A stretch of DNA of 64,000 nt, taken from NCBI GenBank assembly GCA_963666285.1, contig OY762711.1; one strand, 5' to 3'. Shown in pieces: positions 8,704-44,065 of this stretch. The position numbers and the translations under genes are program-made. The first letter of the stretch is position 1, and each line of letters starts with the position of its first letter. The notes beneath the pieces were generated by a model. It ran no database searches and was not told the origin of the DNA. It saw only the letters and a program-made list of their open reading frames with translations. Source of the stretch: Sedimentisphaerales bacterium (GTDB lineage Bacteria > Planctomycetota > Phycisphaerae > Sedimentisphaerales > SM23-30).

Positions 8704-8949
8704 TATTTTTTTATTTTTTGGAGGTTTCAAGGGAGAGGTGTTTTTCATATATTTAGCACCAGGCGAAACTTGGAGCAGAGCAGGCATAGCCTGCACCAGA
8801 CCTCAGCAGCCTCGCTGCGTTCGGACCAGACATAGTCTGGACCAGACCTCGCTTTGCTCGGTAACGAATAGAGATTGTCAATTCTAGAGGGCAAATCAGA
8901 ATGATTTGCCGAGGCGTGATACAAATATTCAGTTTTTCAAAGAGCAAAA

Positions 8950-9417
8950 TTTATGTAAAAGACGAAGTATTCGTCGTTGTTAAGTTTTAACGAGAGCAGT
9001 TTTTTTGTCGGTAATCATTTTTATTAGCTCTCTACAATTGGACGGTATGTCGAAAGTGCGCTGATTTTTTTGATGGGATGGTTGGTTTGGAAGTTTGTAA
9101 GGTGTTGTGGATAAGCGGGATAATAATTTTGAAGATTTTAGATTTTCGCGATTTGGTGGATGTAAAAACGAGATGATTTTTTCGAGAAAATCAGGGGCCA
9201 GGGATCAGGTTTCAGATGCCAGGGAAGGTTGCTCGCTACCGCTCGCGGGTAATTGATGGGTAACGGGAGGTGTGCGGAAAGGTAACGGGACAGCGCGGAG
9301 GTGGGACGGCGGTGAAAAGGGGTGCGGATTTGAACGGCGGGGAATTGCGGGCTGCGGACAGTATACGGCGGAACGTTGAATGGGTGCGGCGGTATACGGA
9401 CTGGAACGAAGCGGAGA
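8950..9417 (+). repeat. ~470 bp non-coding leader-like repeat, copy A
   Basis: Aligns end to end with the reverse complement of 42573-43040; identical blocks include TTATTAGCTCTCTACAATTGGACGGTATGTCGAAAGTGCGCTGATTT. Confidence 0.9.
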
Positions 9418-10619
9418 AGCGACGAGCTACGCTAAATGAAAATGAATAATGAAAAATGAAAAGTTGAGGTGTCCGCTTCGCGGACGGCTTGTTTTAAACG
9501 GCTACGCCGAACGACGGAAGGTCGTTAGAGATTAGAGCAGGTGAGCAGAAGAACAGGCAATCAGCAGCGAGCCAACAGCGGCCAGCGAGCAGCCAAGCTG
9601 CTAGAGATTAGAGCAGATGACAGTGGAACAGGAGGAAGATAAATACGTGCTACGCACTCTGGCACATCATTGGACAAGTCCAATGATGTGAAGGTGTCGC
9701 TACGCAACCTGTTTGAATAATGTGCCGAGCTCCGCCTGAGGCGGATTTCAATCAGCTCAGCGTTCCCAGGAGTGAAGGTGTCGCTACGCGACCTGTTTTA
9801 AACGGGTTCGGCGAAAAGCAGAACCATCAATGAACGCGGATGAACACTGATAAGATGTTGCTAACGCGACGGATGTTTCATGCTCAGTGTTACCAGAGGT
9901 GAAGGAGGGGTTAAAAAACGGAATGAAATTGAAGAGTGCGGGGATATAAGAACGAATGCATGGCGGGTTCAGGGAAGAGTTGCGGCGGGGAGGGGATTTT
10001 GCGGATATTTACGTAAGTTGTTATTTTTGGATTGTGGGCGGACCAGATGCCGCGAAGCGGCATCTGAAGTCTGAAGTTTGAAGTCTGAATTCTGAAAAGA
10101 TGGTGTTCGCCTAGCGGCTCACAACTTATTTTAAAGCTGTTGCATATTTAAATTCAGAATTATGAAAAAGATTGGCAACCACGAAAATTCACGAAAGAAC
10201 ACGAAAAAAAATACTGTTGCTCGCAGAGGACGCAAAGATCGCAAAGAATATTACCTGGCCATGAAGGGAATGCGTTAAATTTAAAATTAAAAATTAAGAA
10301 TTGAGAATTAAAAAGAACTGAAAAATACAAGGCTGCGATAAGTACCAATAATTATAAGATGGCTTGCTTCAGCCTTCGTTAAAGCTATGGTTCGACAAGA
10401 CCGGACGTGATTAATAATTCTGAACCACTGATGCACGCGGATGGACACCGATAAGAAAATGTTTAGATAACTTGACGGTAAATTTTACAACCACGAAAAT
10501 ACAATGAAAGCCAGAATATTCCTGTAGCATGGCTTGTGTTATAATACACAATAATTTTAGCACGAGCTGTCACAGGGACGCTCAAATATTTAACCAATTT
10601 TATACGGAGTATTCTGGCT

Positions 10620-11666
10620 ATGAAGACTATTATGTCAATTGATTTAGGAAAATTCAAGAGTGTAGTTTGTTTTTATGAGGTAAAAAGCTGTAAGGCTATA
10701 TATAAGTCGTTTAAGACTAACCCTCAAGAGCTTCATGACCTGGCAGTATCTCACCCTGCTGATCTTATTGTATTTGAGGCTTGTGATATCATAGGCTGGA
10801 TTTGTGACCTTTTTGACACCCTGGAATTAAAATATGAAGTGGCAAATACTAATACCGGCGAATGGTCTGGCAGAAAATTGAAGAAGAAAACAGATAAAAA
10901 GGATGCATTTTGGCTGGCCAAGCGTGCTGCTTTAGGAGATTTATCAACTGTCTATGTTCCTAAAAAGGAAATTCGAGAGAAACGATCTTTAATTAATTAT
11001 CGCCAGAGCCTTACAGAACGGATAACTCAGGTAAAAAATACTATTCGTTCTTTATTAAATGCCCAGGCGTATTCGTTGCCGTCAGGCAGAAAGTGCTGGT
11101 CTAAGCAGAATCTGGAACAGTTAAGAAGTATGGCTATGCCAATGGATAAAGTTAAACCAGATGAGCTCTGGAAAGGCAATCTATGGAGCGAGCTTATATT
11201 ACTGGAACAATTAACAGACGCTTTGCAAGTAGTTGAAGATAAACTGGAAGAGTTAAATAGTACTGATGAAAAGGTAAAACTATTACAGACTGTTCCCGGA
11301 GTTGGCCCACGTCTGGCAGAGGCAGTTGCAGCTTATATTGATGATCCACATAGATTTAAGAATTGCAAACAAGTTGGCAGCTATATTGGTATGACACCGC
11401 GTCAGTACCAATCAGGTAATACAGACCGTCATGGGCGGATAAGTAAATATGGCAATAGGTTATTGCGAGCATTACTTGTTGAGGTTTGCTGGCTGGGTTT
11501 GCGTTGGAATCCATGGATAAAAGAAACATACGAAAGAATAAAGAGGGGAAGTAAAACTCGTGCAAAAATAGCGATAGTAGCTACAGCCCGACGGTTGTTC
11601 GTACGATTGTGGGCGATGATGCGAGATGGGACAAGTTGGCAGATGCCTGAATTGCAAAGTGTTTGA
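10620..11666 (+). CDS. IS110 family transposase/recombinase
   Basis: DEDD motifs IDLGK, VFEAC, KTDKKDA; C-terminal TVPGVG, YQSG, GRISKYGN. Confidence 0.95.
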   Translation: MKTIMSIDLGKFKSVVCFYEVKSCKAIYKSFKTNPQELHDLAVSHPADLIVFEACDIIGWICDLFDTLELKYEVANTNTGEWSGRKLKKKTDKKDAFWLAKRAALGDLSTVYVPKKEIREKRSLINYRQSLTERITQVKNTIRSLLNAQAYSLPSGRKCWSKQNLEQLRSMAMPMDKVKPDELWKGNLWSELILLEQLTDALQVVEDKLEELNSTDEKVKLLQTVPGVGPRLAEAVAAYIDDPHRFKNCKQVGSYIGMTPRQYQSGNTDRHGRISKYGNRLLRALLVEVCWLGLRWNPWIKETYERIKRGSKTRAKIAIVATARRLFVRLWAMMRDGTSWQMPELQSV

Positions 11667-11714
11667 TACCAATATAAGTAAAATATAAATATTACCTATG
11701 ATTTTGCCCGATTG

Positions 11715-11845
11715 AAATCGATACGGAACCTTGGTCGTGCATTTGGGTTTTGAACCTGACACGAAAATTAAGCCGTATCGCAATATATATAATGGAACCA
11801 TGGCGTAAAATACAGCCTCGGACACTCCGGATAGAAAGATGAAAC
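11715..11845 (+). ncRNA. Putative bridge RNA/seekRNA of IS copy 1 (approximate core)
   Basis: Stem CGATACGG/CCGTATCG (11719-11726/11773-11780) encloses TCGTGCATTT and CACGAAAATT, which match the two strands of the target; a second loop carries ATAGAAA matching the donor end. Confidence 0.75.
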
Positions 11846-12663
11846 AATCAGGTAAATAATGATTCGCTACGCGAAAATTGTTTTAAATAGGTTTATCGCA
11901 TAAGGTCAAAAAGCAAAAAACGAGGCGGTGTAAAACCGCCCCGGCTTCTTGACAACTTGCAACGCTCGGGTTGCTCCTCAGCAGAGCCCTATCCTTTGCA
12001 AGATAAAGGAATTATAGCAAAAATGAATAAAATTAGAAAATTAATGTTGCATTCTGGCTTCATAGAAATTCACGAAAGAACACGAAAAAAAATACTGTTG
12101 CTCGCAGAGGCCGCAAGGTTCGCAAAGTATCATTTCAAATATGGCACTGACCGACACGGGCAGGCACAGGCAAACACGGTAGGCAGCAATCAGCAATCAG
12201 CAATCAGCTACGAGCGGCGAGCGAACAGTGAAGAGGAAATACGTGCTGCGCACTCTGGCACATCATTGGACAAGTCCAATGATGTGAAGGTGTCGCCTGG
12301 CGGCGAGGATGATTAAAAAATAATGGGGAGGCTTGTTTATTCACCCGGTTGAAACCGGGGGCTACCAAAAATTAGCAGTCAGCGGCGAGCGATGCTAAGT
12401 GAAAAATGAATAATGAAAAGTGAAAAGTTGAGGTGTCCTGATATACGTTGACATCAGGAATAATTCGCTGTCGCTCACGACTTATTTTTAAGCTGTCGCA
12501 TATTTAAATTCAGAATTATGAAAAAGATTGTCAACCACGAAAATACAATGAAAGCCAGAATATTCCTGTAGCATGGCTTGTGTTATAATACACAATAATT
12601 TTAGCACGAGCTGTCACAGGGACGCTCAAATATTTAACCAATTTTATACGGAGTATTCTGGCT

Positions 12664-13710
12664 ATGAAGACTATTATGTCAATTGATTTAGGAAAATTCA
12701 AGAGTGTAGTTTGTTTTTATGAGGTAAAAAGCTGTAAGGCTATATATAAGTCGTTTAAGACTAACCCTCAAGAGCTTCATGACCTGGCAGTATCTCACCC
12801 TGCTGATCTTATTGTATTTGAGGCTTGTGATATCATAGGCTGGATTTGTGACCTTTTTGACACCCTGGAATTAAAATATGAAGTGGCAAATACTAATACC
12901 GGCGAATGGTCTGGCAGAAAATTGAAGAAGAAAACAGATAAAAAGGATGCATTTTGGCTGGCCAAGCGTGCTGCTTTAGGAGATTTATCAACTGTCTATG
13001 TTCCTAAAAAGGAAATTCGAGAGAAACGATCTTTAATTAATTATCGCCAGAGCCTTACAGAACGGATAACTCAGGTAAAAAATACTATTCGTTCTTTATT
13101 AAATGCCCAGGCGTATTCGTTGCCGTCAGGCAGAAAGTGCTGGTCTAAGCAGAATCTGGAACAGTTAAGAAGTATGGCTATGCCAATGGATAAAGTTAAA
13201 CCAGATGAGCTCTGGAAAGGCAATCTATGGAGCGAGCTTATATTACTGGAACAATTAACAGACGCTTTGCAAGTAGTTGAAGATAAACTGGAAGAGTTAA
13301 ATAGTACTGATGAAAAGGTAAAACTATTACAGACTGTTCCCGGAGTTGGCCCACGTCTGGCAGAGGCAGTTGCAGCTTATATTGATGATCCACATAGATT
13401 TAAGAATTGCAAACAAGTTGGCAGCTATATTGGTATGACACCGCGTCAGTACCAATCAGGTAATACAGACCGTCATGGGCGGATAAGTAAATATGGCAAT
13501 AGGTTATTGCGAGCATTACTTGTTGAGGTTTGCTGGCTGGGTTTGCGTTGGAATCCATGGATAAAAGAAACATACGAAAGAATAAAGAGGGGAAGTAAAA
13601 CTCGTGCAAAAATAGCGATAGTAGCTACAGCCCGACGGTTGTTCGTACGATTGTGGGCGATGATGCGAGATGGGACAAGTTGGCAGATGCCTGAATTGCA
13701 AAGTGTTTGA
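12664..13710 (+). CDS. IS110 family transposase/recombinase (identical protein to 10620..11666)
   Basis: Identical 348 aa translation. Confidence 0.95.
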   Translation: MKTIMSIDLGKFKSVVCFYEVKSCKAIYKSFKTNPQELHDLAVSHPADLIVFEACDIIGWICDLFDTLELKYEVANTNTGEWSGRKLKKKTDKKDAFWLAKRAALGDLSTVYVPKKEIREKRSLINYRQSLTERITQVKNTIRSLLNAQAYSLPSGRKCWSKQNLEQLRSMAMPMDKVKPDELWKGNLWSELILLEQLTDALQVVEDKLEELNSTDEKVKLLQTVPGVGPRLAEAVAAYIDDPHRFKNCKQVGSYIGMTPRQYQSGNTDRHGRISKYGNRLLRALLVEVCWLGLRWNPWIKETYERIKRGSKTRAKIAIVATARRLFVRLWAMMRDGTSWQMPELQSV

Positions 13711-13758
13711 TACCAATATAAGTAAAATATAAATATTACCTATGATTTTGCCCGATTG

Positions 13759-13889
13759 AAATCGATACGGAACCTTGGTCGTGCATTTGGGTTTTGAACC
13801 TGACACGAAAATTAAGCCGTATCGCAATATATATAATGGAACCATGGCGTAAAATACAGCCTCGGACACTCCGGATAGAAAGATGAAAC
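13759..13889 (+). ncRNA. Putative bridge RNA/seekRNA of IS copy 2
   Basis: Same sequence as 11715-11845. Confidence 0.75.
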
Positions 13890-15075
13890 AATCAGGTAAA
13901 TAATGATTCGCTACGCGAAAATTGTTTTAAATAGGTTTATCGCATAAGGTCAAAAAGCAAAAAACGAGGCGGTGTAAAACCGCCCCGGCTTCTTGACAAC
14001 TTGCAACGCTCGGGTTGCTCCTCAGCAGAGCCCTATCCTTTGCAAGATAAAGGAATTATAGCAAAAATGAATAAAATTAGAAAATTAATGTTGCATTCTG
14101 GCTTCATAGAAATTCACGAAAGAACACGAAAAAAAACTGTTGCTCGCAGAGGCCGCAAAGATCGCAAAGAATATTACTTGATCATGAAGGGAGTGGAGTT
14201 AATGAAGGAGAATAGAAGAGCGAAGCATTGCTAAGTGAAAAGTTATTAAGGTGGCCGCCTATCCTTCGACTAGCTCAGGACAGGTCGGTTCACGACTTGT
14301 TTTAAAGCTGTTGCTACGGATTGTAGAAAAAACGGATTGTGGTAAGTTGGGGAAATGGAATTTTGACTGTAACTAATGAGTGGGGTTGCGGTATAAGAGT
14401 GTGTGGTGTGAGTGAAGATGACATCAGGAATAATTTGCTTTCGCGAACTATTTTAAAGCTCCGCAAACACAGAATCTGACGCAAATAACGCACCTGTGAA
14501 TGCTTACAAGAATGAAATGAGATGGAAGCGATTGGCAGGTGGGCAGCTAAAGGCAACGGCTGTCAGCGGACAGCAAGCAGGATGGGATGTTAATTCCACA
14601 TTGTGCTGCGCACTTCGGCACTTTTCAGGCGGAGCTGAAAAGTGGAGGTATTGCCTGGCGGCGAGGCTTGTTACAAATGATGAGAATATCGGGATGGTTT
14701 AGGAGATTTTCCGGTGTGAGTTTGTGTTGAGGGGCTGGTGCGAGTGTTGGTGTTGTTGGGGTGTTGTAAGTGGTTGTATTATAGTGGTTTATGTTGTGGT
14801 GGTTTCGTGTTGGAAATGAAGGCAATGTTTTTTGAATTGCGGCGTCAATTTTGATGGTAAGTGTTTGGGGAATTGGCGTTTATTTGGTATAATACTATTG
14901 TTTTGAGATTGATTTTGTCTTTTGGCCGGGAAAGAACAGTTTTTTCTCCCGGAAGTTAAGTTTTTTAATAATTGCAGTAGAGTTAAGTCTTGTTTTGAAA
15001 AGAAGTTAGAGGATGAAAAACTGAACGGGTGAACAGTTGAGCAGAAGAAAGAAATATGAGTCTGGAGTCATAAAA

Positions 15076-18000
15076 ATGAAAAATATAATAACTTGTGTGT
15101 TAATTGTATTGTTATGGATGTCAACATTTGCATTTGGTGTGGGTGGAGTTTTGCCTGGGAGTGGGACAGTGAGTGATCCGTATTTGATAGAGGATCTGGC
15201 GGATTTTGATGTGTTTGCGGATGAGGCTAATGCCGGGACGTATTGGGCGAGCGGTGTGTATGCGAAACTGGTGTGTGATATAGATTTGAATGGTCGTGTA
15301 TATGATAGAGCTGTTATTGCATGGGATACAGATGATACAAATGGTGTTAATTTTGATGGAGCAGATTATTCAGGGATCTTTGAAGGTAATAATCACATAA
15401 TAAGTAATATTTCGCTAGAGACTTATTATTACGCAGGGCTTTTTGGTCGGTTAAATAATGGTTCAATTTTAAATCTAGGTGTCGAAAATATAAACATTAC
15501 AAGTTCCAATGGATATAGTGAATATGTTGGTGGTTTGGTCAGCTGTAGTATAAGCAGCTTAATCAATAATTGTTACACAATAGCAACAATTGAGACGGGT
15601 GGTTCTATGGTTGGCGGACTGGCAGGTTGTAATGGGTATGGCAGTACAATTGAAAAATGTTATAGCAATGCAACGGTTTCCGGATACCAATTAATTGGTG
15701 GTTTAGTCGGACTCAATAAAAGTAGTGGTACAATAAACGAAAGTTATGCTATTGGTTATATATCTGGCAGCAGGCTTGTAGGTGGTCTGGCGGGAAGGAA
15801 TTACGGTGGGTCAATATATTGGAGTAATGCATCAAGTACAGTTTCCTGTGATAATGAGATGGTTGGCGGTTTAGCAGGAGGTTCTTCTACTGGTTCCATA
15901 ATTTCTAATTGTTACTCAACGGGTACTATTACTGGAGATGCATATAAGGCCGGAGGCTTGATTGGTGATCTGGAATATGGACAATTATTGAGTTGTTATT
16001 CGCATTGTAGTGTATCAGGATCAAATTCAGTTGGAGGTCTTATTGGATCAGCAAAAGTATTAGATGTGGAATATTGCTATTCAACTGGAGTAGTGTCTGG
16101 AAGCCGATACCCTGGCGGTTTTATGGGATACTTATATTCCGGAAGCTCAGGTATAAAATCATGTTTCTGGGATGTTGACAGTTCTGGTATGACGAACGGA
16201 TTTAGCAGTTATAATATTGGAACGATTTCAGAACTGCAAGGGCTGAATACAGGTGAGATGCAAACTCGATCTACTTTTACTGATGCAGGATGGGACTTTA
16301 TTGATGAGAGCAGCAATGGTACTGATGACTTTTGGTCAATGAAATTATATCCAATATTAAGTATTAATACTGATGGATTTATTTCTATTCCTGACATAAC
16401 AAGCTTACCCCAGATTGATGCAGAAGCGTTAATAATAAGTTCAGGTTTTGTGCCAGGCAATATTAGTTATGATTATAACAGCATAATTCCTGAAGGAAAT
16501 GTAATTAGTCAATTTCCTTTAGCAGGTAAAATGAGGGTGTCAGGCGCCTACATTAATTATACTTTATCATTGGGAGTTTATCCTATTACTGGTTTGGGTA
16601 CAAAAGAATCCCCATATATTATTTCTGATTTTGAAGGTTTTAATATTTTCTGTGATCCGGAAAATGCAGTGAAATACTGGGAGGAGGGAGTTTATACTAG
16701 ATTAGACAATGATATTGACCTGGATCCAGTTTTACCTGACAGGCAGTTGTATACTATGGCACCAATATCACCAGATAGTGCTGGTTCAGGATATCAGGGA
16801 AAAGAATTCAGTGGAGTGTTTGACGGAAGTGGTAAAATAGTAAGTAACCTTACTATCGATGGATCATACTATTGTGGTATGTTTGGTAGAATAGGAACCA
16901 GCGGTTCAGTTATTAACCTCGGTTTGGAAAATGTTTCTGTTACCGGTTCATTTGATAATATTAGCGGACTTGCGGGAGAAAGTTCCGGCAATGTCAGCAA
17001 TTGCTACATTACCGGCATTGTTAGCGGGAGAGACGCTGTTGGCGGGCTTGTTGCAGAAAATAATAGAGGTAGTATTGATAATTGTTACAGCACATGCTCT
17101 GTGACAGGCGATTATGAAATTGGTGGTCTAGTTGGATCTAATTATTTTGGCAGTATTAGTAATTGTTACAGCATTGGTATTGTAGACGGGAATTTACTTG
17201 AGGGCGGACTGGTCGGAAGCGATCTTTCAGGTATCATTAGTAATTGTTATTTATATATTTATTGTGGTTTGAATAATGGACATGGTATTCCACTGGATGA
17301 TACTGGATTAGAGACAAAATCCAGTTTTTCCGGATTTGACTTTACCGGCGATAATGCTGATGGTTCTGGGGATTACTGGGCTATTGAGCCTGGTTATATG
17401 CCAAGACTTGTTTGGCAGGAATCTCCCGGTTTTAATGCGCCATATTTAATTGACAATATTACTACCAGCTTACTAGGCAGCGGTTATTCTGATGACCCTT
17501 TTATAATAGATAGTTATAGTGATCTAATGATATTTAAGAGCGACTCATCTCTGCGAATCGGCTACTACAGCTTAACAACTGATATAGATTTGTCAGGCAT
17601 AACATATACAGAAGCGTTTATACCGGATGATTTTTTCGGAATATTCCAGGGTAATGGTCATCGTATCTCCAACTTAACGATTGATAGTGATTCTAACCTG
17701 GGTTTGTTTGGTAGACTTAATGGTACAGTAGACAATCTAATCCTTGATGACATATCGATAAACGGCACAGGTTCTTATGTCGGTGGGGCAGCAGGAAACA
17801 ATTATTATGGCATTATCAGTAATTGCTATGTTACGGGCAGTATAGTTGGTTTGGGTAACTATGTTGGCGGACTGGCTGGGCGTAGTTATGGTAACATCAG
17901 CAATTGTTGCAACGAAAGTAATATTAGCGGCTCTTATCAAAGCACTGGTGGTTTAACGGGGGATAATTCTGGCAGAGTCATGAAAAGTTACAGTACCGGC

Positions 18001-19635
18001 AATGTAGAAGGAAGAAGTGCTGTTGGTGGTCTAGTGGGAAATAATTATGGCACTATTGTTAACAGTTACAGTACAGGTGATGTTAGCAGTTCTAATAATT
18101 ATGTTGGTGGTCTTGTTGGGACATTTACATCAGGAGATATGAGTAATTGCTATAGCACCGGAAAAGTGAACGGTTTACATTTTATTGGCGGTTTGGTAGG
18201 AGATTATCAACCAGAAACTGACAATGTCTGCAATTGTTATTTTTATGTTCATAGCGGTCCTAATAATGGCTATGGAATGTATCTTGATGATGTTGGCTTA
18301 GAGTCAAAATCCAGTTTTTTCGGTTTTGATTTTACAGGTGATGATACAGATGGCTCGGAAGATATTTGGGAAATTGATCCAGGTTACATGCCTAGACTTG
18401 TTTGGCAGGAAACTCTGGGCTTTAATGCTCCATATTTAATTGACAATATTTCTACCAGCTTAACCGGCAGTGGTTATCCTGATGCCCCATTTATTATAGA
18501 TAATTTAGATGATTTGCTGGAGTTTAAGAATAATAATGCACTTCGTATCGGATGCTATAGTTTAACGAGTGATATTGATTTAGCTAGCGTAACATATACA
18601 GAAGCGTTTATACCGGATGATTTTTTCGGAATATTCCAGGGTAATGGTCATCGTATTTCTAATTTAATGATTGATGGTGATTCTTACCTTGGTTTTTATA
18701 GTAAATTATGTGGTACCGTTGGTAATCTTGTCCTAGAGAATGTGTTCATAAATGGCTCAGATGATTATGTTGGCGGTTTGGTAGGAGACAATTATTATGG
18801 CAATATCATTAATTGTAATGTTTCAGGCAGTGTATCCGGTTTAGATCGTTATGTTGGTGGATTAGCGGGAGACAATTATTATGGCAGTATTAGCAATTGC
18901 TATTCCAGTTCAATTGTTACCGGCTATCGTTATGTTGGCGGCTTGGTGGGAAACAACTACAATGGTATAATTACCAAAAGTTATAACACCGGTACAACAA
19001 ATGGTACTGGTTATTCTATCGGCGGACTTACAGGAGAAAATTATAATGGTAGCATAAGCAGTAGTTTTAGTACCGGAATTGTGAACGGAGAAAGCTATAC
19101 AGGCGGCCTGTGTGGATCGAATTCCAGTGGAGATGTGAGTAACTGCTATGCCACAGGAGATGTTATTGGTTTTTATTCTGTCGGCGGTTTGGTAGGAGAG
19201 AATAATTATGCAAATATCAGTTACAGTTACAGTATCGGAGCAGTTTCTGGTAATAGTGTTGTGGGTGGATTTTGTGGAAATAATATTAGTGCCACTATCA
19301 GCAGTTGTTTCTGGGATATTGAAACTTCTGGTAGGACAATGAGTAATGGAAGTATTGGCAAATCAACAGCAGAGATGCAGATGGTAAGCACCTTCACTGA
19401 TGCGGGTTGGGATTTTGTAGGTGAGGATGGAAATGGTAGTGAGGATTTGTGGCGTATGCCGTATGCTATGCCGGGTTATCCGATACTGGCGTGGCAGAAG
19501 GATATCGCGGGCGATATAGCAGGTGGATATGGTGTGGATATGGAAGATGCAGCTCTGCTGGCGAGTGGTTGGATGGAGAACTATACAAAGGCAGATTTGG
19601 AAACTCTGGCGTCTAACTGGCTGGCGGGGAAGTGA
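15076..19635 (+). CDS. Large secreted GLUG-repeat protein with a PASTA-like domain and dockerin-like C-terminus
   Basis: Signal peptide, many VGGLVG..NCYSTG repeats, GSGTxxDPYLI repeats, IPEGNVISQFP (PASTA-like); start taken at ATG 15076. Confidence 0.85.
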   Translation: MKNIITCVLIVLLWMSTFAFGVGGVLPGSGTVSDPYLIEDLADFDVFADEANAGTYWASGVYAKLVCDIDLNGRVYDRAVIAWDTDDTNGVNFDGADYSGIFEGNNHIISNISLETYYYAGLFGRLNNGSILNLGVENINITSSNGYSEYVGGLVSCSISSLINNCYTIATIETGGSMVGGLAGCNGYGSTIEKCYSNATVSGYQLIGGLVGLNKSSGTINESYAIGYISGSRLVGGLAGRNYGGSIYWSNASSTVSCDNEMVGGLAGGSSTGSIISNCYSTGTITGDAYKAGGLIGDLEYGQLLSCYSHCSVSGSNSVGGLIGSAKVLDVEYCYSTGVVSGSRYPGGFMGYLYSGSSGIKSCFWDVDSSGMTNGFSSYNIGTISELQGLNTGEMQTRSTFTDAGWDFIDESSNGTDDFWSMKLYPILSINTDGFISIPDITSLPQIDAEALIISSGFVPGNISYDYNSIIPEGNVISQFPLAGKMRVSGAYINYTLSLGVYPITGLGTKESPYIISDFEGFNIFCDPENAVKYWEEGVYTRLDNDIDLDPVLPDRQLYTMAPISPDSAGSGYQGKEFSGVFDGSGKIVSNLTIDGSYYCGMFGRIGTSGSVINLGLENVSVTGSFDNISGLAGESSGNVSNCYITGIVSGRDAVGGLVAENNRGSIDNCYSTCSVTGDYEIGGLVGSNYFGSISNCYSIGIVDGNLLEGGLVGSDLSGIISNCYLYIYCGLNNGHGIPLDDTGLETKSSFSGFDFTGDNADGSGDYWAIEPGYMPRLVWQESPGFNAPYLIDNITTSLLGSGYSDDPFIIDSYSDLMIFKSDSSLRIGYYSLTTDIDLSGITYTEAFIPDDFFGIFQGNGHRISNLTIDSDSNLGLFGRLNGTVDNLILDDISINGTGSYVGGAAGNNYYGIISNCYVTGSIVGLGNYVGGLAGRSYGNISNCCNESNISGSYQSTGGLTGDNSGRVMKSYSTGNVEGRSAVGGLVGNNYGTIVNSYSTGDVSSSNNYVGGLVGTFTSGDMSNCYSTGKVNGLHFIGGLVGDYQPETDNVCNCYFYVHSGPNNGYGMYLDDVGLESKSSFFGFDFTGDDTDGSEDIWEIDPGYMPRLVWQETLGFNAPYLIDNISTSLTGSGYPDAPFIIDNLDDLLEFKNNNALRIGCYSLTSDIDLASVTYTEAFIPDDFFGIFQGNGHRISNLMIDGDSYLGFYSKLCGTVGNLVLENVFINGSDDYVGGLVGDNYYGNIINCNVSGSVSGLDRYVGGLAGDNYYGSISNCYSSSIVTGYRYVGGLVGNNYNGIITKSYNTGTTNGTGYSIGGLTGENYNGSISSSFSTGIVNGESYTGGLCGSNSSGDVSNCYATGDVIGFYSVGGLVGENNYANISYSYSIGAVSGNSVVGGFCGNNISATISSCFWDIETSGRTMSNGSIGKSTAEMQMVSTFTDAGWDFVGEDGNGSEDLWRMPYAMPGYPILAWQKDIAGDIAGGYGVDMEDAALLASGWMENYTKADLETLASNWLAGK

Positions 19636-19809
19636 GAAAACAGTGGTTAGGTTACAGGTGCCAGAGTATAGGGTTTGAAAGCCGCGGGCCTTTGATGTAC
19701 TCAGGGCAGACGGCAAGGTAATTTATATAAGTGTGTTTTAGTTTTGTGTATTATGCGAGGCATGCTTGTGGCAGTTCAGCATTGTACACGTAATGTCTGA
19801 TAGTGAAAT

Positions 19810-19968
19810 TAGAGCAATTTAATTTTTCGTGTTCGCTTTTTACCTGTTGCGGCTTCGGCTGACTTCATCAGAAATACTCGTAATATATCAATATTCCTGT
19901 GTTTTCTTCTTTATCAGCCTCGTCCTCACAGAGGCAAAAATCGGAACAGAAAATATTAAAGTGCTCTA
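19810..19968. mobile_element. MITE-like palindromic element, copy 1
   Basis: TIR TAGAGCAATTTAAT / ATTAAAGTGCTCTA with TA at both ends; homologous to 27037-27215 in the opposite orientation. Confidence 0.75.
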
Positions 19969-20061
19969 GAATTGCAGTTGAACGCAAATAATGCGTATAG
20001 GAAGAAGGGATAATGTAGTCGATGGCTGCATATAGAAATTGTGAAAACAGGAGAGTCTAAA

Positions 20062-23000
20062 ATGCAAAAGCTGAGTCTAATGATTTTGAGTCTGGTTTTG
20101 GTAGTAAGTGGGATGGTAAATGCTGCTGGTGGGGCTATGCCGGGGAGTGGGACGGAGTCTGATCCGTATTTGATAGAGGATCTGGCGGATTTTGATGTGT
20201 TTGCGGATGAGGCTAATGCCGGGACATATTGGTCGAGCGGTGTGTATACGAAACTGGTGTGTGATATAGATTTGAGCGGTCGGGTGTATGACAAGGCAGT
20301 GATAGCACCGGATACAGATAATACACAATTATGGTATCAGGGGAATAATTACTATGGAGTTTTTGATGGAAATGGTCATAAAATAACCGGTTTGACAATT
20401 ACGCCAACTGCCGGAGAAGATTATCTTGGCCTGTTTGGCAGGCTTTTGGGTTCTACAGCTGCAATAAAAAATCTTAATGTAGAAAATTATTCTATAACAG
20501 GAACCAACTTAAGTGATGTGTTGGGAGCAATATGCGGGATGTGTGTAGAAGCTAAGATTGATAGTTGTCATGGAAAAGGGATGGTGTCAGGATGTTATTA
20601 CCTAGGAGGTGTTTGCGGAGTATTAGCGGGAGGAGAAATAATTGACAGCAGTATAGAATGTGAAATTATTTGCAATAATAGTGTTTATGCCGGTGGTATA
20701 TGTGGTATTATTGATGGTAGTTCTTCTATAACAGACTGCTCCAGTGTAGGTGTAATATCAGGAATTGGTTTTACAAGAAAAATTGGTTGTTTGTGCGGCT
20801 ATAATAATTCATCGACGATCAGCAGGTGCTCGGCAGAAGGTTCGATCAGGCTTGGAGTTGATTCAGAATTAGTTGGCGGTTTTTGCGGCGAGAATAATTC
20901 TGGAACGATTGAACATAGCTATAGCCAGGTTTCTGTCGAAGGAGGTGACAGTTTAGGTGTGTTTTGTGGTTCGAACAATGACGGTACGATACGCAAATGT
21001 TATGCCAGTGGTGATATTCGTGGTGAAAGTAATGTTGGCGGTTTTTTGGGTTATAACAATACAGATGAATATTTAGTAACATATTGTTATTCTTCAGTTT
21101 TAGTATTAGGTATGGATAGGGATACAACGGGCGGCTTTTGTGGTGATTATGAATCCAAATCATCTTTATATTGTATCTACGATGGGGAAAAGAACAGTTA
21201 TTATTATGTTGGCGGTGCGTATCCTGCATCAACAGCCGAGATGCAAATGATGAGTACTTATACTGATAAAAACTGGGATTTTGTAAATTATTCTAATGGC
21301 GGGACAGATTCTGACTGGTATATGGCAGATTATCCGATATTATCATGGCAGATTGAAGAGTTCGTTGAGATGCCTTATGTTGGTAATATACTGCCGTCAG
21401 AAGCAGATGTTATGTTGGCTAATGCAGGTTTGCTTACAGGAGTGGTGAGCAATGAATACAGTAATGTTGTTGCAGAAGGTATGATAATCAGCCTGGAATA
21501 TGAAGCGGGAGACTATCTGGCAAGCGGTTCGAGTGTTGATTATACTGTATCTCTCGGAGTATGGCCGGTAGTGCCGGAGTTGGTAATGATGACATTGGCT
21601 GGCGCAGAATCGGCGATATTGGATGCCGGTCTGGAATTTGGTGGGGCCGGTTATGTTTACCATGATTTCTTCGAGCCGGGAAGAGTTTGCAGTCAGTATC
21701 CTGCTGCGGGTGTAATGTTAGGGGCTGGAGAGAAGGTATATATTAATGTTTCGCTGGGAGTGTGCCCGGGATTGGCAGGCAGCGGAACGGAGGAAGATCC
21801 TTACCTGATAGCGAGCCTGGCAGATTTTGTTGAGTTTTCTGATGTTGATAATGAAGGAGTTTACTGGGCGGAAGGTGTGTATGCCAGGCTAACAAATGAT
21901 ATTGATCTTGAGACAATGAATTATACAAACTCGGTTGTATCGTCATATAATGGTATTTTTGACGGTGATGGTCATGTGATAAGTAATTTGCGGATAGGAA
22001 GTATGGATGGTTTTGGTGACCTGGGACTGTTTGGTTGGCTGCGTGCAGGTTCTGTGGTAAGGGCTCTTGGTCTGGAAGATGTCGAAGTTCGGTCGGGTAA
22101 CAGGTCGAATTATATAGGCTCTCTTTGCGGGATGATTTATGGCGAAGGAGCAAAGATTGAGGGCTGCTATTCAACCGGAAGTGTAACAGCGGGCGAGGGA
22201 GTGAATTTTGTCGGCGGTCTGTGCGGCAGAGTGGCAAACGAAGGTGTATTGACAGATTCGTATTCAGTTTGTACGGTATCTGCAGGTAGGAACTCGGACA
22301 ATATTGGCGGTCTGTGTGGGGCAGTTAATGGCACAGTTGCTTATTGTTATGCCGGGGGAGATGTAAGTGGAGAAGGAGTTAGAGTCGGCGGATTGTGCGG
22401 CGGAATAGGTACGTGGTCGGGTATAACCGGGACAGTATCAAACAGCTATGCAACCGGTTCTATAAGCGGTGTGGATTATGTCGGCGGCTTTTGCGGGGAA
22501 AGTATTTCAGATGTAGTAATAAACTGTTATGCAACAGGCGAGGTAAGCGGCGAAGATTATATAGGAGGTTTTATTGGTTATGGCAGTGCGAGCGGCTGCT
22601 ATGCAACGGGAAATGTTACGGGGGCCTCTAAAGTAGGTGGCTTTGTCGGTTACGGCGGCGGCGAGAATTGTTATGCTACGGGTGAGGTTACGGGATTGGC
22701 TGAGGTTGGCGGTTTTGTCGGAACTTTGTATAATGTCGATGTGAAATATTGTTATTCGACCGGTAAGGTATCAGGGTATTCAGAAGTTGGTGGTTTTATC
22801 GGGGTATTAAAAGAAGGCGTTTCGGAGAGTAATTTCTGGGATGTTGAAGCGAGCGGATTCGGCAGTGTTGGTGATGTATGGGCAGGTTCAACCGGCATGA
22901 CAACGGCACAGATGCAGACGAGGCAGACGTATGGTGATGCGGATTGGAATATGGTTTATCAGGCTTCAAATTATGATTCCCGAGAATACATTGCGCCAGA

Positions 23001-24849
23001 TTGGTATATGGAAGAAGGCAGTTACCCTCAAAAGCCATGGGAGTTTGCATGTGATTTGCTGCCGGGTAAGGGTTCCAGTTACAATCCGTTTCTAATAGAG
23101 GATATCTCTGATTTTGATATTTTATGCGATACACGATATTTCTGTCACGAAGGCGTTCATGTGAAACTAATGTGCGACCTAGACCTTGAAGGAAGGGTTT
23201 ATGATAATTCACCAATAGCTCCTCAATGTTATAGATATTCTGACAATGAAAGATACGTTGAGGTTGGATTTGCCGGGGTATTTGATGGAAATGGTTATGT
23301 TATTAGTAATATTAACATTGAACCAGACGGCGATAATATTATGCAATGCATAGGTTTTTTTGGCAGGGTAAAAGGTGAAAATGCTGAAATTAAAAACCTT
23401 GGAATAGAAAACATAACGATATCAGATACGGTAATGGACAATTACGTTAATGTTTGGGAATATCGGTATGGTGGATTATGTGGTTCAAACCAATATGGCG
23501 TAATAAGAAATTGTTATACTACAGGAATGGTTGGCGGTATAGGATTGTACAGTCAGTTAAGTAATAGTAATGGCGGTTTGTGTGGATACAATCTAGCAGG
23601 CGAAATCACAGGTAGTCATTCATTATGTGATATTTCAGGCGGAGGTGGCGGTTTATGTGGCTGGAATAGGGGAGGTTCAATTACAAATTGTTATGCTGCA
23701 GGTGAAATATTTAATGGCGGCGGTGGTTTATGTGGATATTCACTTGATTATTCACCATCAGCATCATCAGATATTTATTATGCTTCAATAAAAGATTGCT
23801 ATGCTTCAGGAAATGTGAGCGGAAAAAGATATGTTGGAGGTTTTATAGCAAGAAATTGTAGTTTAGTTGAGAATTGTTATGCAACAGGAAATGTTGAAGG
23901 AATTGAATTTCTTGGCGGTTTTGCAAGTTCAAATGAATATGATAGTTTCGTATATCATGCAGGTAATATTTCGCAATGTCATTCGACAGGTGACGTGAAT
24001 GTCAATGTTCCGGCTGATTATATAATTGATGAGGTTTCGTATGCCGGCGGTTTTTGCGGTAAAGGACGTTCAGATATAACAAACTGTTATAGTGAAGGTA
24101 ATGTAACGGTGAATAATGAATGCCCGAATGCCTATAGTAAAGTCGGCGGTTTTTGCGGCGGGAGTGTGTCCTCAACTTTACGTATATCATATTGTTTTTC
24201 GACCGGTTCGGTTTATGCCGGGGCAAATAGCGAAAGTGTCGGCGGTTTTTGCGGATTTAGTAGCCAAGCAACGATATTCAGGAATTATTCCAGGGGCGAT
24301 GTTGAAGGCGGCAAATATGTTGGCGGTTTCCTTGGTTATGCAGATGGATGTTCGATAGGTTATAATTATTCAACAGGCGAGGTTGATGGAAATGAGAAAG
24401 TTGGTGGCTTTGCCGGATATTTTGAAAGTAATCGTGGCGGAGGTTCATTCTGGGATGTAGAGACAAGCGGCATGGCAGATCCAGAAGCAGGAGAGGAAGA
24501 TACTGACGGGATGGCAGGCAAAATGACATCAGAGATGTATGATATTGATACATATCTGGATGCGGGTTGGGATTTCAGATTTGGTCGTGGAAGCGGTACA
24601 ATCAGTTACTGGTATATGCCGGTAGATGATTATCCGATCTTGACCTGGCAGGAAGGTGTTCCGCTGACACCAGATATTGATGGTGATAGGGATATTGATA
24701 TAATAGATTTTACACGATTTGCCAGTTACTGGGGTGAGTGTGATTGTGGCGAGCCAGGCTGGTGCGGTGGAAGAGATTTTGATATGGATCGTTGTGTGAA
24801 TATGAATGATTTGCTTATACTGGCGTCTAACTGGCTGGCGTGGAAGTAA
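20062..24849 (+). CDS. Large secreted GLUG-repeat protein with two PASTA-like domains and dockerin-like C-terminus
   Basis: Signal peptide, VGGFCG/GGLCG repeats, PASTA-like segments, DIDGDRDIDIIDF...DFDMDRCVNMNDL C-terminus; GGAG RBS before ATG 20062. Confidence 0.85.
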   Translation: MQKLSLMILSLVLVVSGMVNAAGGAMPGSGTESDPYLIEDLADFDVFADEANAGTYWSSGVYTKLVCDIDLSGRVYDKAVIAPDTDNTQLWYQGNNYYGVFDGNGHKITGLTITPTAGEDYLGLFGRLLGSTAAIKNLNVENYSITGTNLSDVLGAICGMCVEAKIDSCHGKGMVSGCYYLGGVCGVLAGGEIIDSSIECEIICNNSVYAGGICGIIDGSSSITDCSSVGVISGIGFTRKIGCLCGYNNSSTISRCSAEGSIRLGVDSELVGGFCGENNSGTIEHSYSQVSVEGGDSLGVFCGSNNDGTIRKCYASGDIRGESNVGGFLGYNNTDEYLVTYCYSSVLVLGMDRDTTGGFCGDYESKSSLYCIYDGEKNSYYYVGGAYPASTAEMQMMSTYTDKNWDFVNYSNGGTDSDWYMADYPILSWQIEEFVEMPYVGNILPSEADVMLANAGLLTGVVSNEYSNVVAEGMIISLEYEAGDYLASGSSVDYTVSLGVWPVVPELVMMTLAGAESAILDAGLEFGGAGYVYHDFFEPGRVCSQYPAAGVMLGAGEKVYINVSLGVCPGLAGSGTEEDPYLIASLADFVEFSDVDNEGVYWAEGVYARLTNDIDLETMNYTNSVVSSYNGIFDGDGHVISNLRIGSMDGFGDLGLFGWLRAGSVVRALGLEDVEVRSGNRSNYIGSLCGMIYGEGAKIEGCYSTGSVTAGEGVNFVGGLCGRVANEGVLTDSYSVCTVSAGRNSDNIGGLCGAVNGTVAYCYAGGDVSGEGVRVGGLCGGIGTWSGITGTVSNSYATGSISGVDYVGGFCGESISDVVINCYATGEVSGEDYIGGFIGYGSASGCYATGNVTGASKVGGFVGYGGGENCYATGEVTGLAEVGGFVGTLYNVDVKYCYSTGKVSGYSEVGGFIGVLKEGVSESNFWDVEASGFGSVGDVWAGSTGMTTAQMQTRQTYGDADWNMVYQASNYDSREYIAPDWYMEEGSYPQKPWEFACDLLPGKGSSYNPFLIEDISDFDILCDTRYFCHEGVHVKLMCDLDLEGRVYDNSPIAPQCYRYSDNERYVEVGFAGVFDGNGYVISNINIEPDGDNIMQCIGFFGRVKGENAEIKNLGIENITISDTVMDNYVNVWEYRYGGLCGSNQYGVIRNCYTTGMVGGIGLYSQLSNSNGGLCGYNLAGEITGSHSLCDISGGGGGLCGWNRGGSITNCYAAGEIFNGGGGLCGYSLDYSPSASSDIYYASIKDCYASGNVSGKRYVGGFIARNCSLVENCYATGNVEGIEFLGGFASSNEYDSFVYHAGNISQCHSTGDVNVNVPADYIIDEVSYAGGFCGKGRSDITNCYSEGNVTVNNECPNAYSKVGGFCGGSVSSTLRISYCFSTGSVYAGANSESVGGFCGFSSQATIFRNYSRGDVEGGKYVGGFLGYADGCSIGYNYSTGEVDGNEKVGGFAGYFESNRGGGSFWDVETSGMADPEAGEEDTDGMAGKMTSEMYDIDTYLDAGWDFRFGRGSGTISYWYMPVDDYPILTWQEGVPLTPDIDGDRDIDIIDFTRFASYWGECDCGEPGWCGGRDFDMDRCVNMNDLLILASNWLAWK

Positions 24850-31226: not shown

Positions 31227-31627
31227 AATTATATCCAACTTTTTAAAATGTAAACCAAAAATTTGCTATATAGCATTATAATATATTACAAACACGAAAC
31301 TTATGATATTTTTTTAAGATATATGGAGGGAGATTCTTATCTATGGACCTTGAAAATGTCGATTTTCAAGCGTAGTCGGCAATCACAAATCGTTTTTAAT
31401 CAAATAGGCCTTTATAACAATAGATTTATGGGATAATACCTTAAAATGATATGCCGGATAGTAAATTTGAATTATTTTTTAAAATTAATGTCTTAATTTT
31501 GCTCATTAAGACCCTATAGCAATAGAAGTCTAAATTCTAAATTACGTTAGTTTATTTGGTATGTCTGGTCCTGTGATAAGTTGTCACATTATAGATTTAA
31601 TGTTTTAACAAATAACAGGAGACAACA

Positions 31628-32047
31628 ATGTTGGTAAGTAAACGAACTTATAATCGCTACAGCGAAGCCTTTAAATTACAGGTGGTAAATGATCTTGAAT
31701 CTGGTAAGCTAAGCAGTATTTATGAGGCTAATTCCCGCTATGGGATTTCTGGTACAACAACAGTAAAGAGTTGGCTAAGAAAATATGGCCGTAACCATTT
31801 GATACCAAAGGTGATACGCGTGGAAAAACTAGATGAACAAGATCATGTAAAGAAGTTAGAATCAGAGATTAAGCAGCTTAAAGAAGCGTTAGCAGACAGC
31901 CATATAGAGAATATTGTAAGTGAAGCCAGGTTTCAGGTTATTTGTAAAGAATACGGGCTGGATCCCGAGGAGTATAAAAAAAAAGTCGATACCAAACGGT
32001 TCAACAAGCGTCCGAGGCAACCGTTGAAAAGAAAGAGGAAAAAATAG
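31628..32047 (+). CDS. IS3 OrfA (HTH)
   Basis: RYSEAFKLQVV..YGISGTTTVKSWLRKYG; A9G slippery run at 31976-31985. Confidence 0.85.
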   Translation: MLVSKRTYNRYSEAFKLQVVNDLESGKLSSIYEANSRYGISGTTTVKSWLRKYGRNHLIPKVIRVEKLDEQDHVKKLESEIKQLKEALADSHIENIVSEARFQVICKEYGLDPEEYKKKVDTKRFNKRPRQPLKRKRKK

Positions 32048-32076
32048 CGATAACTTCCTTATGCAAAGCTGTTGGC

Positions 32077-32862: not shown

Positions 32863-33092
32863 TATATTCCTCCGTTCCGGTCGCCCTTCGGGCTCCCTGC
32901 ACTACGGAATATATCATCAAAAAACAATAGTAAATAGAAACGGAAAGTGACAACTTTAAATCAGGACTTGACAGTAGTTTATGAGTGTTATGCTAAGATG
33001 TTTTGATGGAAGATAATAATTAAAGATACAACTGGAAGGTCCTTTTTTGCATTTATTACATCGTGAAAACTTTGAAAGAAAAGTTATATATT

Positions 33093-42572: not shown

Positions 42573-43040
42573 TCTCCGCTTCGTCCCCGTCCGTATACCG
42601 CCGCACCCATTCAACGTTCCGCCGTATACTGCCCGCGGCCCGCAATTCACCGCCGCTCAAATCCGTACCCCTTTTCACCGCCGTACACCCGCCGCGCTGC
42701 CCCGTATATATGCCGCACTCCCTCCGTCCCCCATCAATCTGCCGCGAGCGTCAGCGAGCAACCTTCCCTGGCACCTGAAACCAGATCCCTGACCCCTGAT
42801 TTTCTCGAAAAAATCACCGCGTTTTTACAACCACCAAAACGCGAAAATCTAAAATCTTCAAAAATTTTATCCACTTTACCATCAACACCTTACAATCTTC
42901 CACACCAACTATCCCGCCCAATAAATCAGCGCACTTTCGACATACCGTCCAATTGTAGAGAGCTAATAAAAAATGAGAACCAACAAAAATCAGCTCTCGC
43001 TAAAACATAACAACGACGAAAACTTCGTCTTTAACATAAA
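42573..43040 (-). repeat. ~470 bp non-coding leader-like repeat, copy B (inverted)
   Basis: Reverse complement aligns with 8950-9417. Confidence 0.9.
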
Positions 43041-43108
43041 AAAGTGATCTATAAAAATCGAATATTGAAGCTTGTTTTTATGCTGTGCTATACCGTATCA
43101 TTTAGCGT

Positions 43109-43997: not shown

Positions 43998-44065
43998 TTA
44001 AAATAAGCTGTGAGCCGTCAGGTGAACACCGCAGCTCTTCACTCTTAGTTTTTCACTCTTCACTT
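43998..44065 (-). repeat. Solo array-type module
   Basis: Minus strand GGTGTTCACCTGACGGCTCACAGCTTATTTTAA, similar to 10102-10135 and preceded by heptad repeats. Confidence 0.65.

What the first reader, a model, noticed from the sequence alone, without database searches (positions are those of the whole stretch)
8950..14680. Leader-anchored, polarised array of non-coding cassettes, present twice in the window (candidate undescribed system)
Seen: two loci (8950-14680 on +, 43040-41860 on -) share one plan. A conserved ~470 bp leader is followed by co-oriented short modules punctuated by a unit RAGGTG-[variable hairpin]-YTRTTTTAAA. Examples: GAGGTGTCCGCTTCGCGGACGGCTTGTTTTAAA (9466), AAGGTGTCGCTACGCGACCTGTTTTAAA (9775), GGTGTTCGCCTAGCGGCTCACAACTTATTTTAAA (10102), plus 12287, 12430, 14248, 14415, 14645 and, on the minus strand, 42543, 42183, 41949. 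The outer boxes are conserved while the inner hairpin is swapped. Units are often preceded by ~7 nt microrepeats. No cas, integrase or reverse transcriptase gene is adjacent. Inference: this leader plus variable cassette plan resembles an integron or CRISPR locus but fits neither, and may be assembled by a trans-acting recombinase or HUH enzyme acting on hairpins.
Basis: partly seen in the sequence, partly recalled or inferred. Interest (0 to 1): 0.85.

Follow-up and report, generated by a model that had tools for sequence, protein, structure and literature searches.

The report
Patchwork mosaic repeats of a planctomycete
The two look-alike loci belong to about 30 gene-free mosaic repeats in this bacterium that share one fixed end and swap small pieces with each other at an unusually fine scale, which suggests selfish DNA remixed through short single strands rather than a CRISPR- or integron-like memory.

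Summary
The loci are real but are not an acquisition array. The leader has 30 near-full copies on the chromosome. All 77 units within 6 kb downstream of a leader point the same way, and 119 more are solo. Copies share a collinear scaffold with swappable slots, one inside the 'leader', and hold almost no unique sequence.

The striking feature is patchwork. Leaders are 71-91% identical and nearly two-allele, with linkage gone by 20-40 bp; a simple model fits exchange tracts of about 30 nt. A second genome's element behaves likewise. Extra-stable DNA mini-hairpins are 34-fold enriched, mainly on one strand. The modules resemble flanks of four-helix-bundle and GxxExxY genes and are targets of IS110, IS3-like elements and group II introns. 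Analogous elements occur in at least three relatives.

No mobilising enzyme was found. Closest known: NIME, BIME/REPIN, BrickBuilt. This scan noted related heptamer-hairpin mosaics before, here and in other genomes. Verdict: new variant of a known kind.

The parts
8779..8924 (+). Optional upstream extension (short palindromes plus a 65-bp module at 8861-8925); start approximate
   Evidence: the 65-bp module lies directly before 9 leaders and 1 degenerate fragment
8925..8945 (-). Sharp fixed edge of the element; on the minus strand it resembles this genome's rRNA-leader motif (boxA, name recalled)
8925..9190 (+). Scaffold block L1 (first part of the 'leader'), with a small hairpin at 8961-8975
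9191..9249 (+). Slot 0 inside the 'leader': heptamer run plus hairpin; replaced by another run plus unit in 9 of 30 copies and by a third module in 1
9250..9415 (+). Scaffold block L2 (G-rich second part of the 'leader'); end approximate
9416..9498 (+). Slot 1: heptamer run plus complete unit (9466-9498)
9499..9899 (+). Variable modules: hairpins, heptamer runs, palindromic block B (9655-9700), degenerate unit ~9692, unit 9775-9802, decamer module ~9822-9855
9900..10047 (+). Scaffold block C (29 of 30 loci); its end resembles the ~28-32-nt anchor repeat of analogous elements in relatives
10048..10496 (+). Hairpin, heptamer run, unit 10102-10135, then decamer and heptamer modules
10497..12065 (+). 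IS110 element, copy 1 (1569 bp; transposase 10620-11666), inserted in a decamer module; ends +/-4
12066..12540 (+). Array modules between the IS copies: second block B, partial unit 12287, unit 12430-12491
12541..14109 (+). IS110 element, copy 2, identical to copy 1 (0 differences; transposase 12664-13710)
14110..14680 (+). Distal modules: unit 14248-14306, truncated unit ~14415-14457, degenerate unit ~14645; ragged end
42575..43065 (-). Second element: fixed edge, L1, slot 0, L2
41850..42574 (-). Second element's array: units 42543-42515, 42183-42122 and 41949-41916, block C ~42393-42243, block D ~42115-42066, heptamer and decamer runs; ragged end
43998..44040 (-). Solo heptamer run plus unit-like hairpin just behind the subtilase gene, ~1 kb upstream of the second leader
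   Evidence: (read from the sequence), gene

Best explanation
These are copies of a lineage-specific, non-autonomous, gene-free mosaic repeat, one-end-anchored and about 1.0-1.8 kb without IS insertions. Each copy is a fixed scaffold (edge, L1, slot, L2, slot, B, C, slot, D, ragged end). The slots are filled from a closed stock of small modules: heptamer runs, decamer runs and hairpin units. The same modules lie solo across the genome and flank four-helix-bundle and GxxExxY mini-genes.

SHOWN: architecture, polarity, slot swaps, fine-scale two-allele patchwork, strand-biased mini-hairpins, and targeting by IS110, IS3-like elements and group II introns.

INFERRED: copies are continually rewritten by short-tract exchange (about 15-60 nt) among the ~30 elements and the solo modules. 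The same process at short shared words swaps slot contents. The donor is most likely short single-stranded DNA of the C-rich strand, stabilised by its mini-hairpins. The agent that spreads and remixes the elements acts in trans and is unidentified. The host gains little, or at most a sink for insertion sequences.
For: (1) 30 near-full copies with a sharp edge and ragged far end; no significant orientation bias (19 leading / 12 lagging; upstream gene 18 same / 13 opposite). (2) Collinear scaffold: median 86% of shared sequence lies in one collinear chain over 325 pairs, and pairs share a median 58%; block order. (3) Leader identity 0.71-0.91, with no recent duplicate pair. (4) Linkage r2 falls from 0.36 (<=5 bp) through 0.105 and 0.076 to 0.041 at 20-40 bp, baseline 0.038; Spearman -0.174 against a permutation minimum of -0.057. 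(5) Third alleles 10% against 32% (28-37) in 40 no-recombination simulations; clean two-allele transversion sites 75% against 20% (0-40). (6) The same signs appear in block C (n=26) and in a 115-column block from another genome (n=30). (7) A simple conversion model fits mean tracts of ~15-60 nt, best near 30; at 120 nt or more linkage is too long. (8) A 12-copy coding paralog family of similar identity keeps linkage to >100 bp (r2 0.38 at 10-20 bp against 0.14 for 11-leader subsamples). (9) GC-GNA-GC hairpins: 89 bottom strand, 17 top, 2.6 expected; GC-GNNA-GC: 47, 8, 4.1. These are the extra-stable, nuclease-resistant DNA mini-hairpins of PMC13037366. (10) Run plus unit lies directly upstream of four-helix-bundle genes at C1:8296 and C1:5096210; like runs flank such genes and GxxExxY genes in relatives. 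(11) IS3-like 8 of 9, IS110 8 of 9 and a second IS110 family 3 of 3 lie within 700 bp of modules, which covers 5.6% of the chromosome.
Against: (1) No enzyme was found: arrays hold no genes but IS passengers; the one RAYT-like gene is below cut-off and not flanked by units; four-helix-bundle genes do not track the elements. (2) Alignment breakpoints are only weakly enriched at hairpins (0.25-0.30 against 0.22 background), so junctions are not shown to be hairpin-defined. (3) The coding control also shows conversion, so ectopic exchange is general here and the difference may be one of degree. (4) The tract estimate comes from a toy model with 2-6 replicates per setting, no population structure and no selection. 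(5) Mini-hairpin counts come from about a dozen module types copied many times, so they are not independent. (6) Solo units just behind genes lean to the gene's strand (26 same, 9 opposite) and score as terminator-like, which fits an RNA role. (7) No clean empty site was found.
Confidence: 0.55

Rival explanations
1. An old MITE-like repeat that spread once and is now inert. Ordinary RecA-type ectopic conversion over long times, plus slippage in the heptamer runs, made the patchwork; the hairpin-plus-T-run units are REP-like terminators or mRNA stabilisers. No special machinery.
For: No recent duplicates. A coding family also shows conversion. Units score as terminator-like on the + strand. 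Solo units close behind genes are co-oriented 26 to 9. Decayed copies exist at C1:1420038 and C1:769028.
Against: Linkage vanishes several-fold faster than in the coding control. Copies differ by 9-29% and mutS is present, which should hinder ordinary recombination (established knowledge). Mini-hairpin loops are strand-biased to the DNA-stable form. Another genome's copies show few private changes and the same two-allele mixing.
Confidence: 0.25
2. Retro-type system: the G/A-rich strand is transcribed and reverse-transcribed in trans (group II intron RT, with Avd-like four-helix-bundle proteins as helpers, as in diversity-generating retroelements). The C-rich cDNA patches or seeds other copies, giving one fixed and one ragged end.
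For: One fixed and one ragged end. Mini-hairpins lie on the strand that would be cDNA. Two RT genes are present, one with a motif change, plus a frameshifted one. Modules flank four-helix-bundle genes; their likeness to Avd is recalled.
Against: No adenine-specific bias: major-to-minor changes are led by G>A 20 and T>A 12, A>G 8. The RTs sit in group II introns that insert into the heptamer runs, i.e. look like passengers. No fixed template copy is evident (star-like tree, internal branches 16% of length).
Confidence: 0.1
3. One reading: an integron- or CRISPR-like locus in which a trans-acting recombinase adds cassettes next to a leader.
For: Strict polarity, 77 of 77. Conserved outer boxes with swapped inner hairpins. 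The boxes loosely recall Xer dif arms (recalled, not tested).
Against: Closed vocabulary and no gene cassettes. Fixed block order. The leader itself has a slot. 119 solo units. No integron integrase over cut-off. The two cas1 genes lie >80 kb from any leader.
Confidence: 0.06
4. Host-functional regulatory loci or a large structured RNA: antitermination (boxA-like edge) or promoter blocks that control neighbouring genes.
For: boxA-like edge with a hairpin just before it on the minus strand, the same order as in this genome's rRNA leader.
Against: No orientation link to neighbours. Promoter-like hits at chance level, 4 against 3.2 +/- 2.0. The consensus fold of 30 leaders shows only local hairpins. 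No Rfam match but one at E 3.4. The leader was not found in 40 relatives, including two near-complete genomes of the same genus.
Confidence: 0.04

Closest known systems
Neisserial intergenic mosaic elements (NIME: dRS3 + RS elements; PMC1797815, passages seen)
   Same: Intergenic arrays of a short conserved repeat with varied 50-150-bp modules. Proposed recombination substrates, with insertion elements inside and a phage recombinase targeting the repeat.
   Different: NIME punctuation is a 20-bp inverted repeat flanking modules, with no anchor described in the passages seen. Here there is a ~500-bp anchor, fixed block order, one polarity, heptamer runs and a measured patchwork.
REP/BIME and REPIN-RAYT (abstract starts seen; PMC8049555 passages)
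   Same: Short imperfect hairpins, high copy, lineage-specific, intergenic, often just behind stop codons, built into mosaics. A single-strand HUH enzyme is the model mobiliser.
   Different: BIME/REPIN REPs alternate in orientation; here 77 of 77 are co-oriented. No RAYT gene is flanked by units. Long fixed scaffold.
BrickBuilt MITE of Porphyromonas gingivalis (PMC4596501, passages seen); BOX elements of Streptococcus pneumoniae (recalled; named in earlier finding e1-4714902)
   Same: About 20-30 intergenic copies with a conserved leader and a variable repeat interior; species-restricted.
   Different: BrickBuilt has one 23-nt repeat, a tail and IS5-type terminal inverted repeats, and no IS inside. 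Here there is no conserved far end, many module types, and heavy IS targeting.
Intergenic heptamer direct repeats of Beggiatoaceae, Cyanobacteria and Bacteroidetes (PMC4679880, abstract and passages seen)
   Same: Oriented heptamer runs between genes, patchy distribution, mechanism unknown.
   Different: Here many heptamer types are tied to hairpin units and assembled on a scaffold. The paper's main text has no hit for 'four helix' or 'GxxExxY'.
IS110-family RNA-guided transposases that target repeats (NF033542; targeting of repeats recalled and noted in e1-8162753)
   Same: The two IS110 copies in the window; 8 of 9 genome copies sit co-oriented in the same decamer module.
   Different: They are passengers: most elements lack them.

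Membership tests
Integron / CALIN | Integron integrase in the genome | tested here: not met
   TIGR02249: best 85 bits against cut-off 265; the top two tyrosine recombinases read as XerC/XerD-like (label recalled)
Integron / CALIN | Gene cassettes between attC sites | tested here: not met
   ORFs between modules are antisense readings of the repeats or host genes; only IS genes lie inside arrays
Integron / CALIN | attC anatomy (R'/R'' cores, L boxes, extrahelical bases) | not tested
   No attC model was run; the units have a bulged stem by inspection
CRISPR array | Identical repeats with unique, equal-length spacers | tested here: not met
   20,804 of 20,812 array bases recur elsewhere; spacing irregular; no Rfam CRISPR hit
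CRISPR array | cas genes linked | tested here: not met
   cas1 at C1:3246967 and C1:6067449, >80 kb from the nearest leader
REP/BIME/REPIN | 20-40-nt imperfect palindromes in high copy, intergenic | tested here: met
   196 units; 7 of 119 solo units inside long ORFs
REP/BIME/REPIN | Pairs in inverted orientation | tested here: not met
   77 of 77 co-oriented
REP/BIME/REPIN | RAYT gene flanked by the repeats | tested here: not met
   5 Y1 hits: three identical and one broken IS200-like, one RAYT-like at 62 bits (cut-off 80); none flanked by units
MITE (BrickBuilt type) | Terminal inverted repeats or a conserved tail, and target duplication | tested here: not met
   Far ends are ragged and no common terminus was seen; target duplication cannot be read without a second end
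MITE (BrickBuilt type) | Non-coding, multicopy, lineage-restricted | tested here: met
   30 copies; leader not found in 40 relatives bar two 27-35-bp chance-level hits; unit pattern in 0 of 24 family genomes
NIME-like mosaic arrays | Arrays of a conserved short repeat separating families of variable modules | tested here: met
NIME-like mosaic arrays | dRS3 sequence, Neisseria host | tested here: not met
   Units do not resemble the dRS3 given in PMC1797815
NIME-like mosaic arrays | Syntenic arrays differ between strains | not testable with these tools
   Only unitig-type contigs of 2 samples from 1 study; no piece spans the locus
Diversity-generating retroelement | Template/variable repeat pair with adenine-specific changes | tested here: not met
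   Change spectrum not adenine-specific; no template copy evident
IS91-like rolling-circle element | Y2 transposase in the genome | tested here: inconclusive
   No PF04986 hit, but the control genomes were silent too

The most novel reading that the evidence does not exclude
A dedicated, RecA-independent system in these planctomycetes makes short, mini-hairpin-protected single strands from dispersed mosaic elements and from four-helix-bundle/GxxExxY cassette flanks. It pastes ~30-nt patches between 30-50 chromosomal sites, spreading the elements and keeping them in a combinatorial two-allele state. This would be a natural oligo-recombineering process and would explain the long-unexplained heptamer repeats of many bacteria.
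Probability: 0.25. Interest if true: 0.88.

Novelty: new variant of a known kind. Interest (0 to 1): 0.62.

Why it matters
How heptamer repeats and REP-like mosaics arise and spread is an open question; PMC4679880 finds no mechanism. This family gives measurable handles: one fixed end, defined slots, a tract-length estimate far below usual recombination tracts, and a strand-specific single-strand signature. It is seen here and, with unrelated sequence, in relatives. It also shows that one small module stock links four-helix-bundle/GxxExxY flanks, solo intergenic hairpins and kilobase elements, and that three IS families and group II introns land in it. If a dedicated short-patch enzyme exists, it would be a new editing activity that works between sequences 10-30% apart despite mutS.

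Tried and rejected
(1) Rfam: one chance hit, E 3.4. (2) Consensus folding: one search mixed orientations and was discarded; redone, giving only local hairpins. (3) Collection scans: exact 24-mer of the leader, 0 hits in metagenome contigs; 17-mer, 35 hits, none with a leader-like extension beyond one 53-bp match at 77% (the printout was cut, judged from the BLAST table); unit and block-C patterns, 0 in viral contigs. (4) No RNA holder was listed. The three runs are contigs from at most 2 samples of 1 study: they confirm single-copy pieces of the array (9797-9939, 12108-12255, 14258-14483 with 0 differences in X1 and X2) but cannot show strain order or expression. (5) Replichore bias: none significant. 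(6) Enzyme hunt: Y1, Y2, RT, tyrosine recombinases, GIY-YIG, integron integrase and Cas1, and ORFs between modules; none is tied to the arrays except as an inserted passenger. (7) Co-occurrence: four-helix-bundle genes in 19 of 24 relatives, GxxExxY in 20 of 24 but none in this genome, mutS in 20 of 24 and here; none discriminates. (8) Junctions at hairpins: weak. (9) Empty sites through paralogous flanks: none clean. (10) Contigs C2-C4 lack these modules. (11) Two other control families were too uniform to use and two had too few copies. (12) A module-by-module string for each locus is not given; order rests on alignments and three blocks. (13) Literature searches with no paper; one search gave one listing (PMC2267715, abstract start only); one search gave nothing on this plan. 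Subscription journals are mostly not in the library, and no supplements were read.

Full report
1. OBSERVATION. The sequence is as described at most coordinates. Complete units lie at 9466, 9775, 10102, 12430 and 14248 on + and at 42543, 42183 and 41949 on -; those at 12287, 14415 and 14645 are partial. The window is G000:C1:704001-768000 of a 6.35-Mb genome. Earlier notes call it a planctomycete, and records with related repeats are titled Planctomycetota or Sedimentisphaerales; I did not determine the taxon myself.

2. A DISPERSED FAMILY. BLAST of the leader gives 34 hits on C1, 30 near full length at 78-89%. Nine leaders carry a shared 65-bp extension further out. Unit cores number 219 against 1-2 in shuffles. 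Of 196 non-redundant units, 77 lie within 6 kb downstream of a leader, all co-oriented, 1 lies upstream, about 6 are expected by chance, and 119 are solo. Leaders show no significant bias to replichore (19/12) or to the upstream gene (18/13). Solo units within 130 nt of a gene end lean to that gene's strand, 26 to 9 (crude ORF calls). Array strands are G/A-rich and C-poor (A 0.31, G 0.31, C 0.15).

3. SCAFFOLD WITH SLOTS, NOT A GROWING ARRAY. Over 325 pairs, a median 58% of an array matches the other, and a median 86% of the shared sequence is collinear. Block C is in 29 of 30 loci, B precedes C in 24 of 25, and D follows C in 16 of 16. Between the blocks, heptamer runs and hairpin units are exchanged. 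The 'leader' has such a slot itself: 20 copies of one filling, 9 of another, 1 of a third. Almost nothing is unique: 20,804 of 20,812 bases match elsewhere against 16% for 40 other intergenic stretches (partly circular). No genes lie in arrays except inserted elements. Alignment ends are only weakly enriched at hairpins.

4. PATCHWORK. The 30 leaders are 0.71-0.91 identical, with no recent pair. At 76 informative sites outside the slot, r2 is 0.36, 0.105, 0.076, 0.041, 0.055, 0.037 and 0.036 with rising distance; the baseline is 0.038. Against 40 simulations on the best tree without recombination, third alleles are 10% (simulated 28-37%), clean two-allele transversion sites 75% (0-40%), and near/far r2 0.154/0.036 (flat 0.07). 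Block C (n=26; third alleles 0.21 against 0.26-0.33) and a 115-column block from one MAG record (30 of 34 rows kept; 0.13 against 0.15-0.29) show the same signs. A toy copy-to-copy conversion model fits mean tracts of 15-60 nt, best near 30. A 12-member coding family in the same genome also shows conversion, but with linkage beyond 100 bp. mutS is present. Short-read contigs reproduce three 143-226-nt array pieces exactly at single-copy depth, which argues against, but does not exclude, assembly chimeras.

5. SINGLE-STRAND SIGNATURE. The most enriched short hairpin class is GC-GNA-GC: 89 on the C-rich strand, 17 on the other, 2.6 expected; GC-GNNA-GC gives 47, 8 and 4.1. PMC13037366 (abstract start and passages) describes these as extra-stable, nuclease-resistant DNA mini-hairpins found at single-strand origins and the N4 promoter. 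Standard DNA energies do not separate the strands (-6.7 against -6.7), and that review says such models do not capture this stability. The counts are not independent. The units also read as hairpin plus T-run on the other strand.

6. WHERE THE MODULES COME FROM AND WHAT USES THEM. The genome has 9 four-helix-bundle hits over cut-off. At C1:8296 and C1:5096210 a heptamer run plus unit lies directly before the gene; at C1:45310 gene plus run is tandemly repeated. In relatives, heptamer runs flank these genes and decamer runs flank GxxExxY genes (14 loci viewed). This genome has no GxxExxY gene over cut-off. Copies within 700 bp of a module: IS3-like 8 of 9, IS110 8 of 9, a second IS110 family 3 of 3, against 5.6% of the chromosome. 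The window's IS110 sits in the same decamer module in 8 of 9 copies, and two group II introns sit in heptamer runs.

7. RELATIVES. The leader was not found in 40 relatives nor the unit pattern in 24 family genomes. Block C matched only short words in 13 of 200 genomes of the order. Following those words showed multicopy elements of the same plan in G010, G022 and G018 (59, 46 and 46 matches): an anchor of ~28-32-nt repeats, a fixed block, co-oriented heptamer, decamer and hairpin modules, and a ragged end. That anchor repeat matched in 5 of 24 family genomes and gave 77 loci in 4 records of the genome collection. These records may overlap the handles and are not counted as independent.

8. MECHANISM. 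Best supported (0.55): non-autonomous mosaic repeats rewritten by short-tract exchange, probably through single-stranded DNA of the C-rich strand, with a trans-acting agent not identified. Tested enzyme candidates gave no link.

9. COMPARISON AND NOVELTY. It works like NIME or BIME arrays and looks in outline like BrickBuilt, but it fails membership of integrons, CRISPR, REPIN-RAYT, classical MITEs and DGRs on tested features. I found no paper on this plan. Papers seen: PMC4679880 (abstract, passages), PMC1797815, PMC4596501, PMC8049555, PMC13037366 and bioRxiv 10.64898/2026.10.21.760802 (passages only); others as listings. Earlier notes of this scan report heptamer-hairpin mosaics in this and other genomes; a search of them for patchwork conversion returned nothing. 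Verdict: new variant of a known kind, interest 0.62; novel reading probability 0.25.

Noticed in passing
G000:C1:3242372-3250718: A CRISPR array of 14 repeats follows a 1290-aa gene (Cas12a-like start, recalled), cas1 and two small genes. The ninth copy of the window's IS110 is inserted inside one spacer; the 23 nt right of it have no match within 4 mismatches elsewhere in the genome.
   Followed up: partly
window 11860-11887 and 13904-13931: The non-coding right end of the IS110 carries a unit-like hairpin with the same right box.
   Followed up: no
G000:C1:45310-46200: Tandem amplification of a four-helix-bundle gene with its heptamer flank: two whole copies and a partial third.
   Followed up: no
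G000:C1:2346621-2347219: A second array in the opposite orientation abuts the edge of this leader, the one clear head-to-head case.
   Followed up: no
G000:C1:2548554 and C1:2695018-2695199: One element sits ~90 bp behind a tRNA-like gene whose promoter region is duplicated elsewhere with a different 3' flank.
   Followed up: partly
G000:C1 family of 1514062-1514745: A 12-copy small coding family shows gene-conversion-like linkage over ~100-160 bp.
   Followed up: partly
window 15037-24849: Two large GLUG-repeat/PASTA proteins (1532 and 1602 aa) follow the first element.
   Followed up: no
window 14720-14900: AT-rich stretch past the array end, with a palindrome-like motif that resembles the end of block C.
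   Followed up: no
window 31560-32975 (approximate): The one IS3-like copy of this family in the window appears to lie outside any module.
   Followed up: no
G000:C2, C3, C4: Three related ~65-kb contigs (76-96% in parts), free of these modules.
   Followed up: partly
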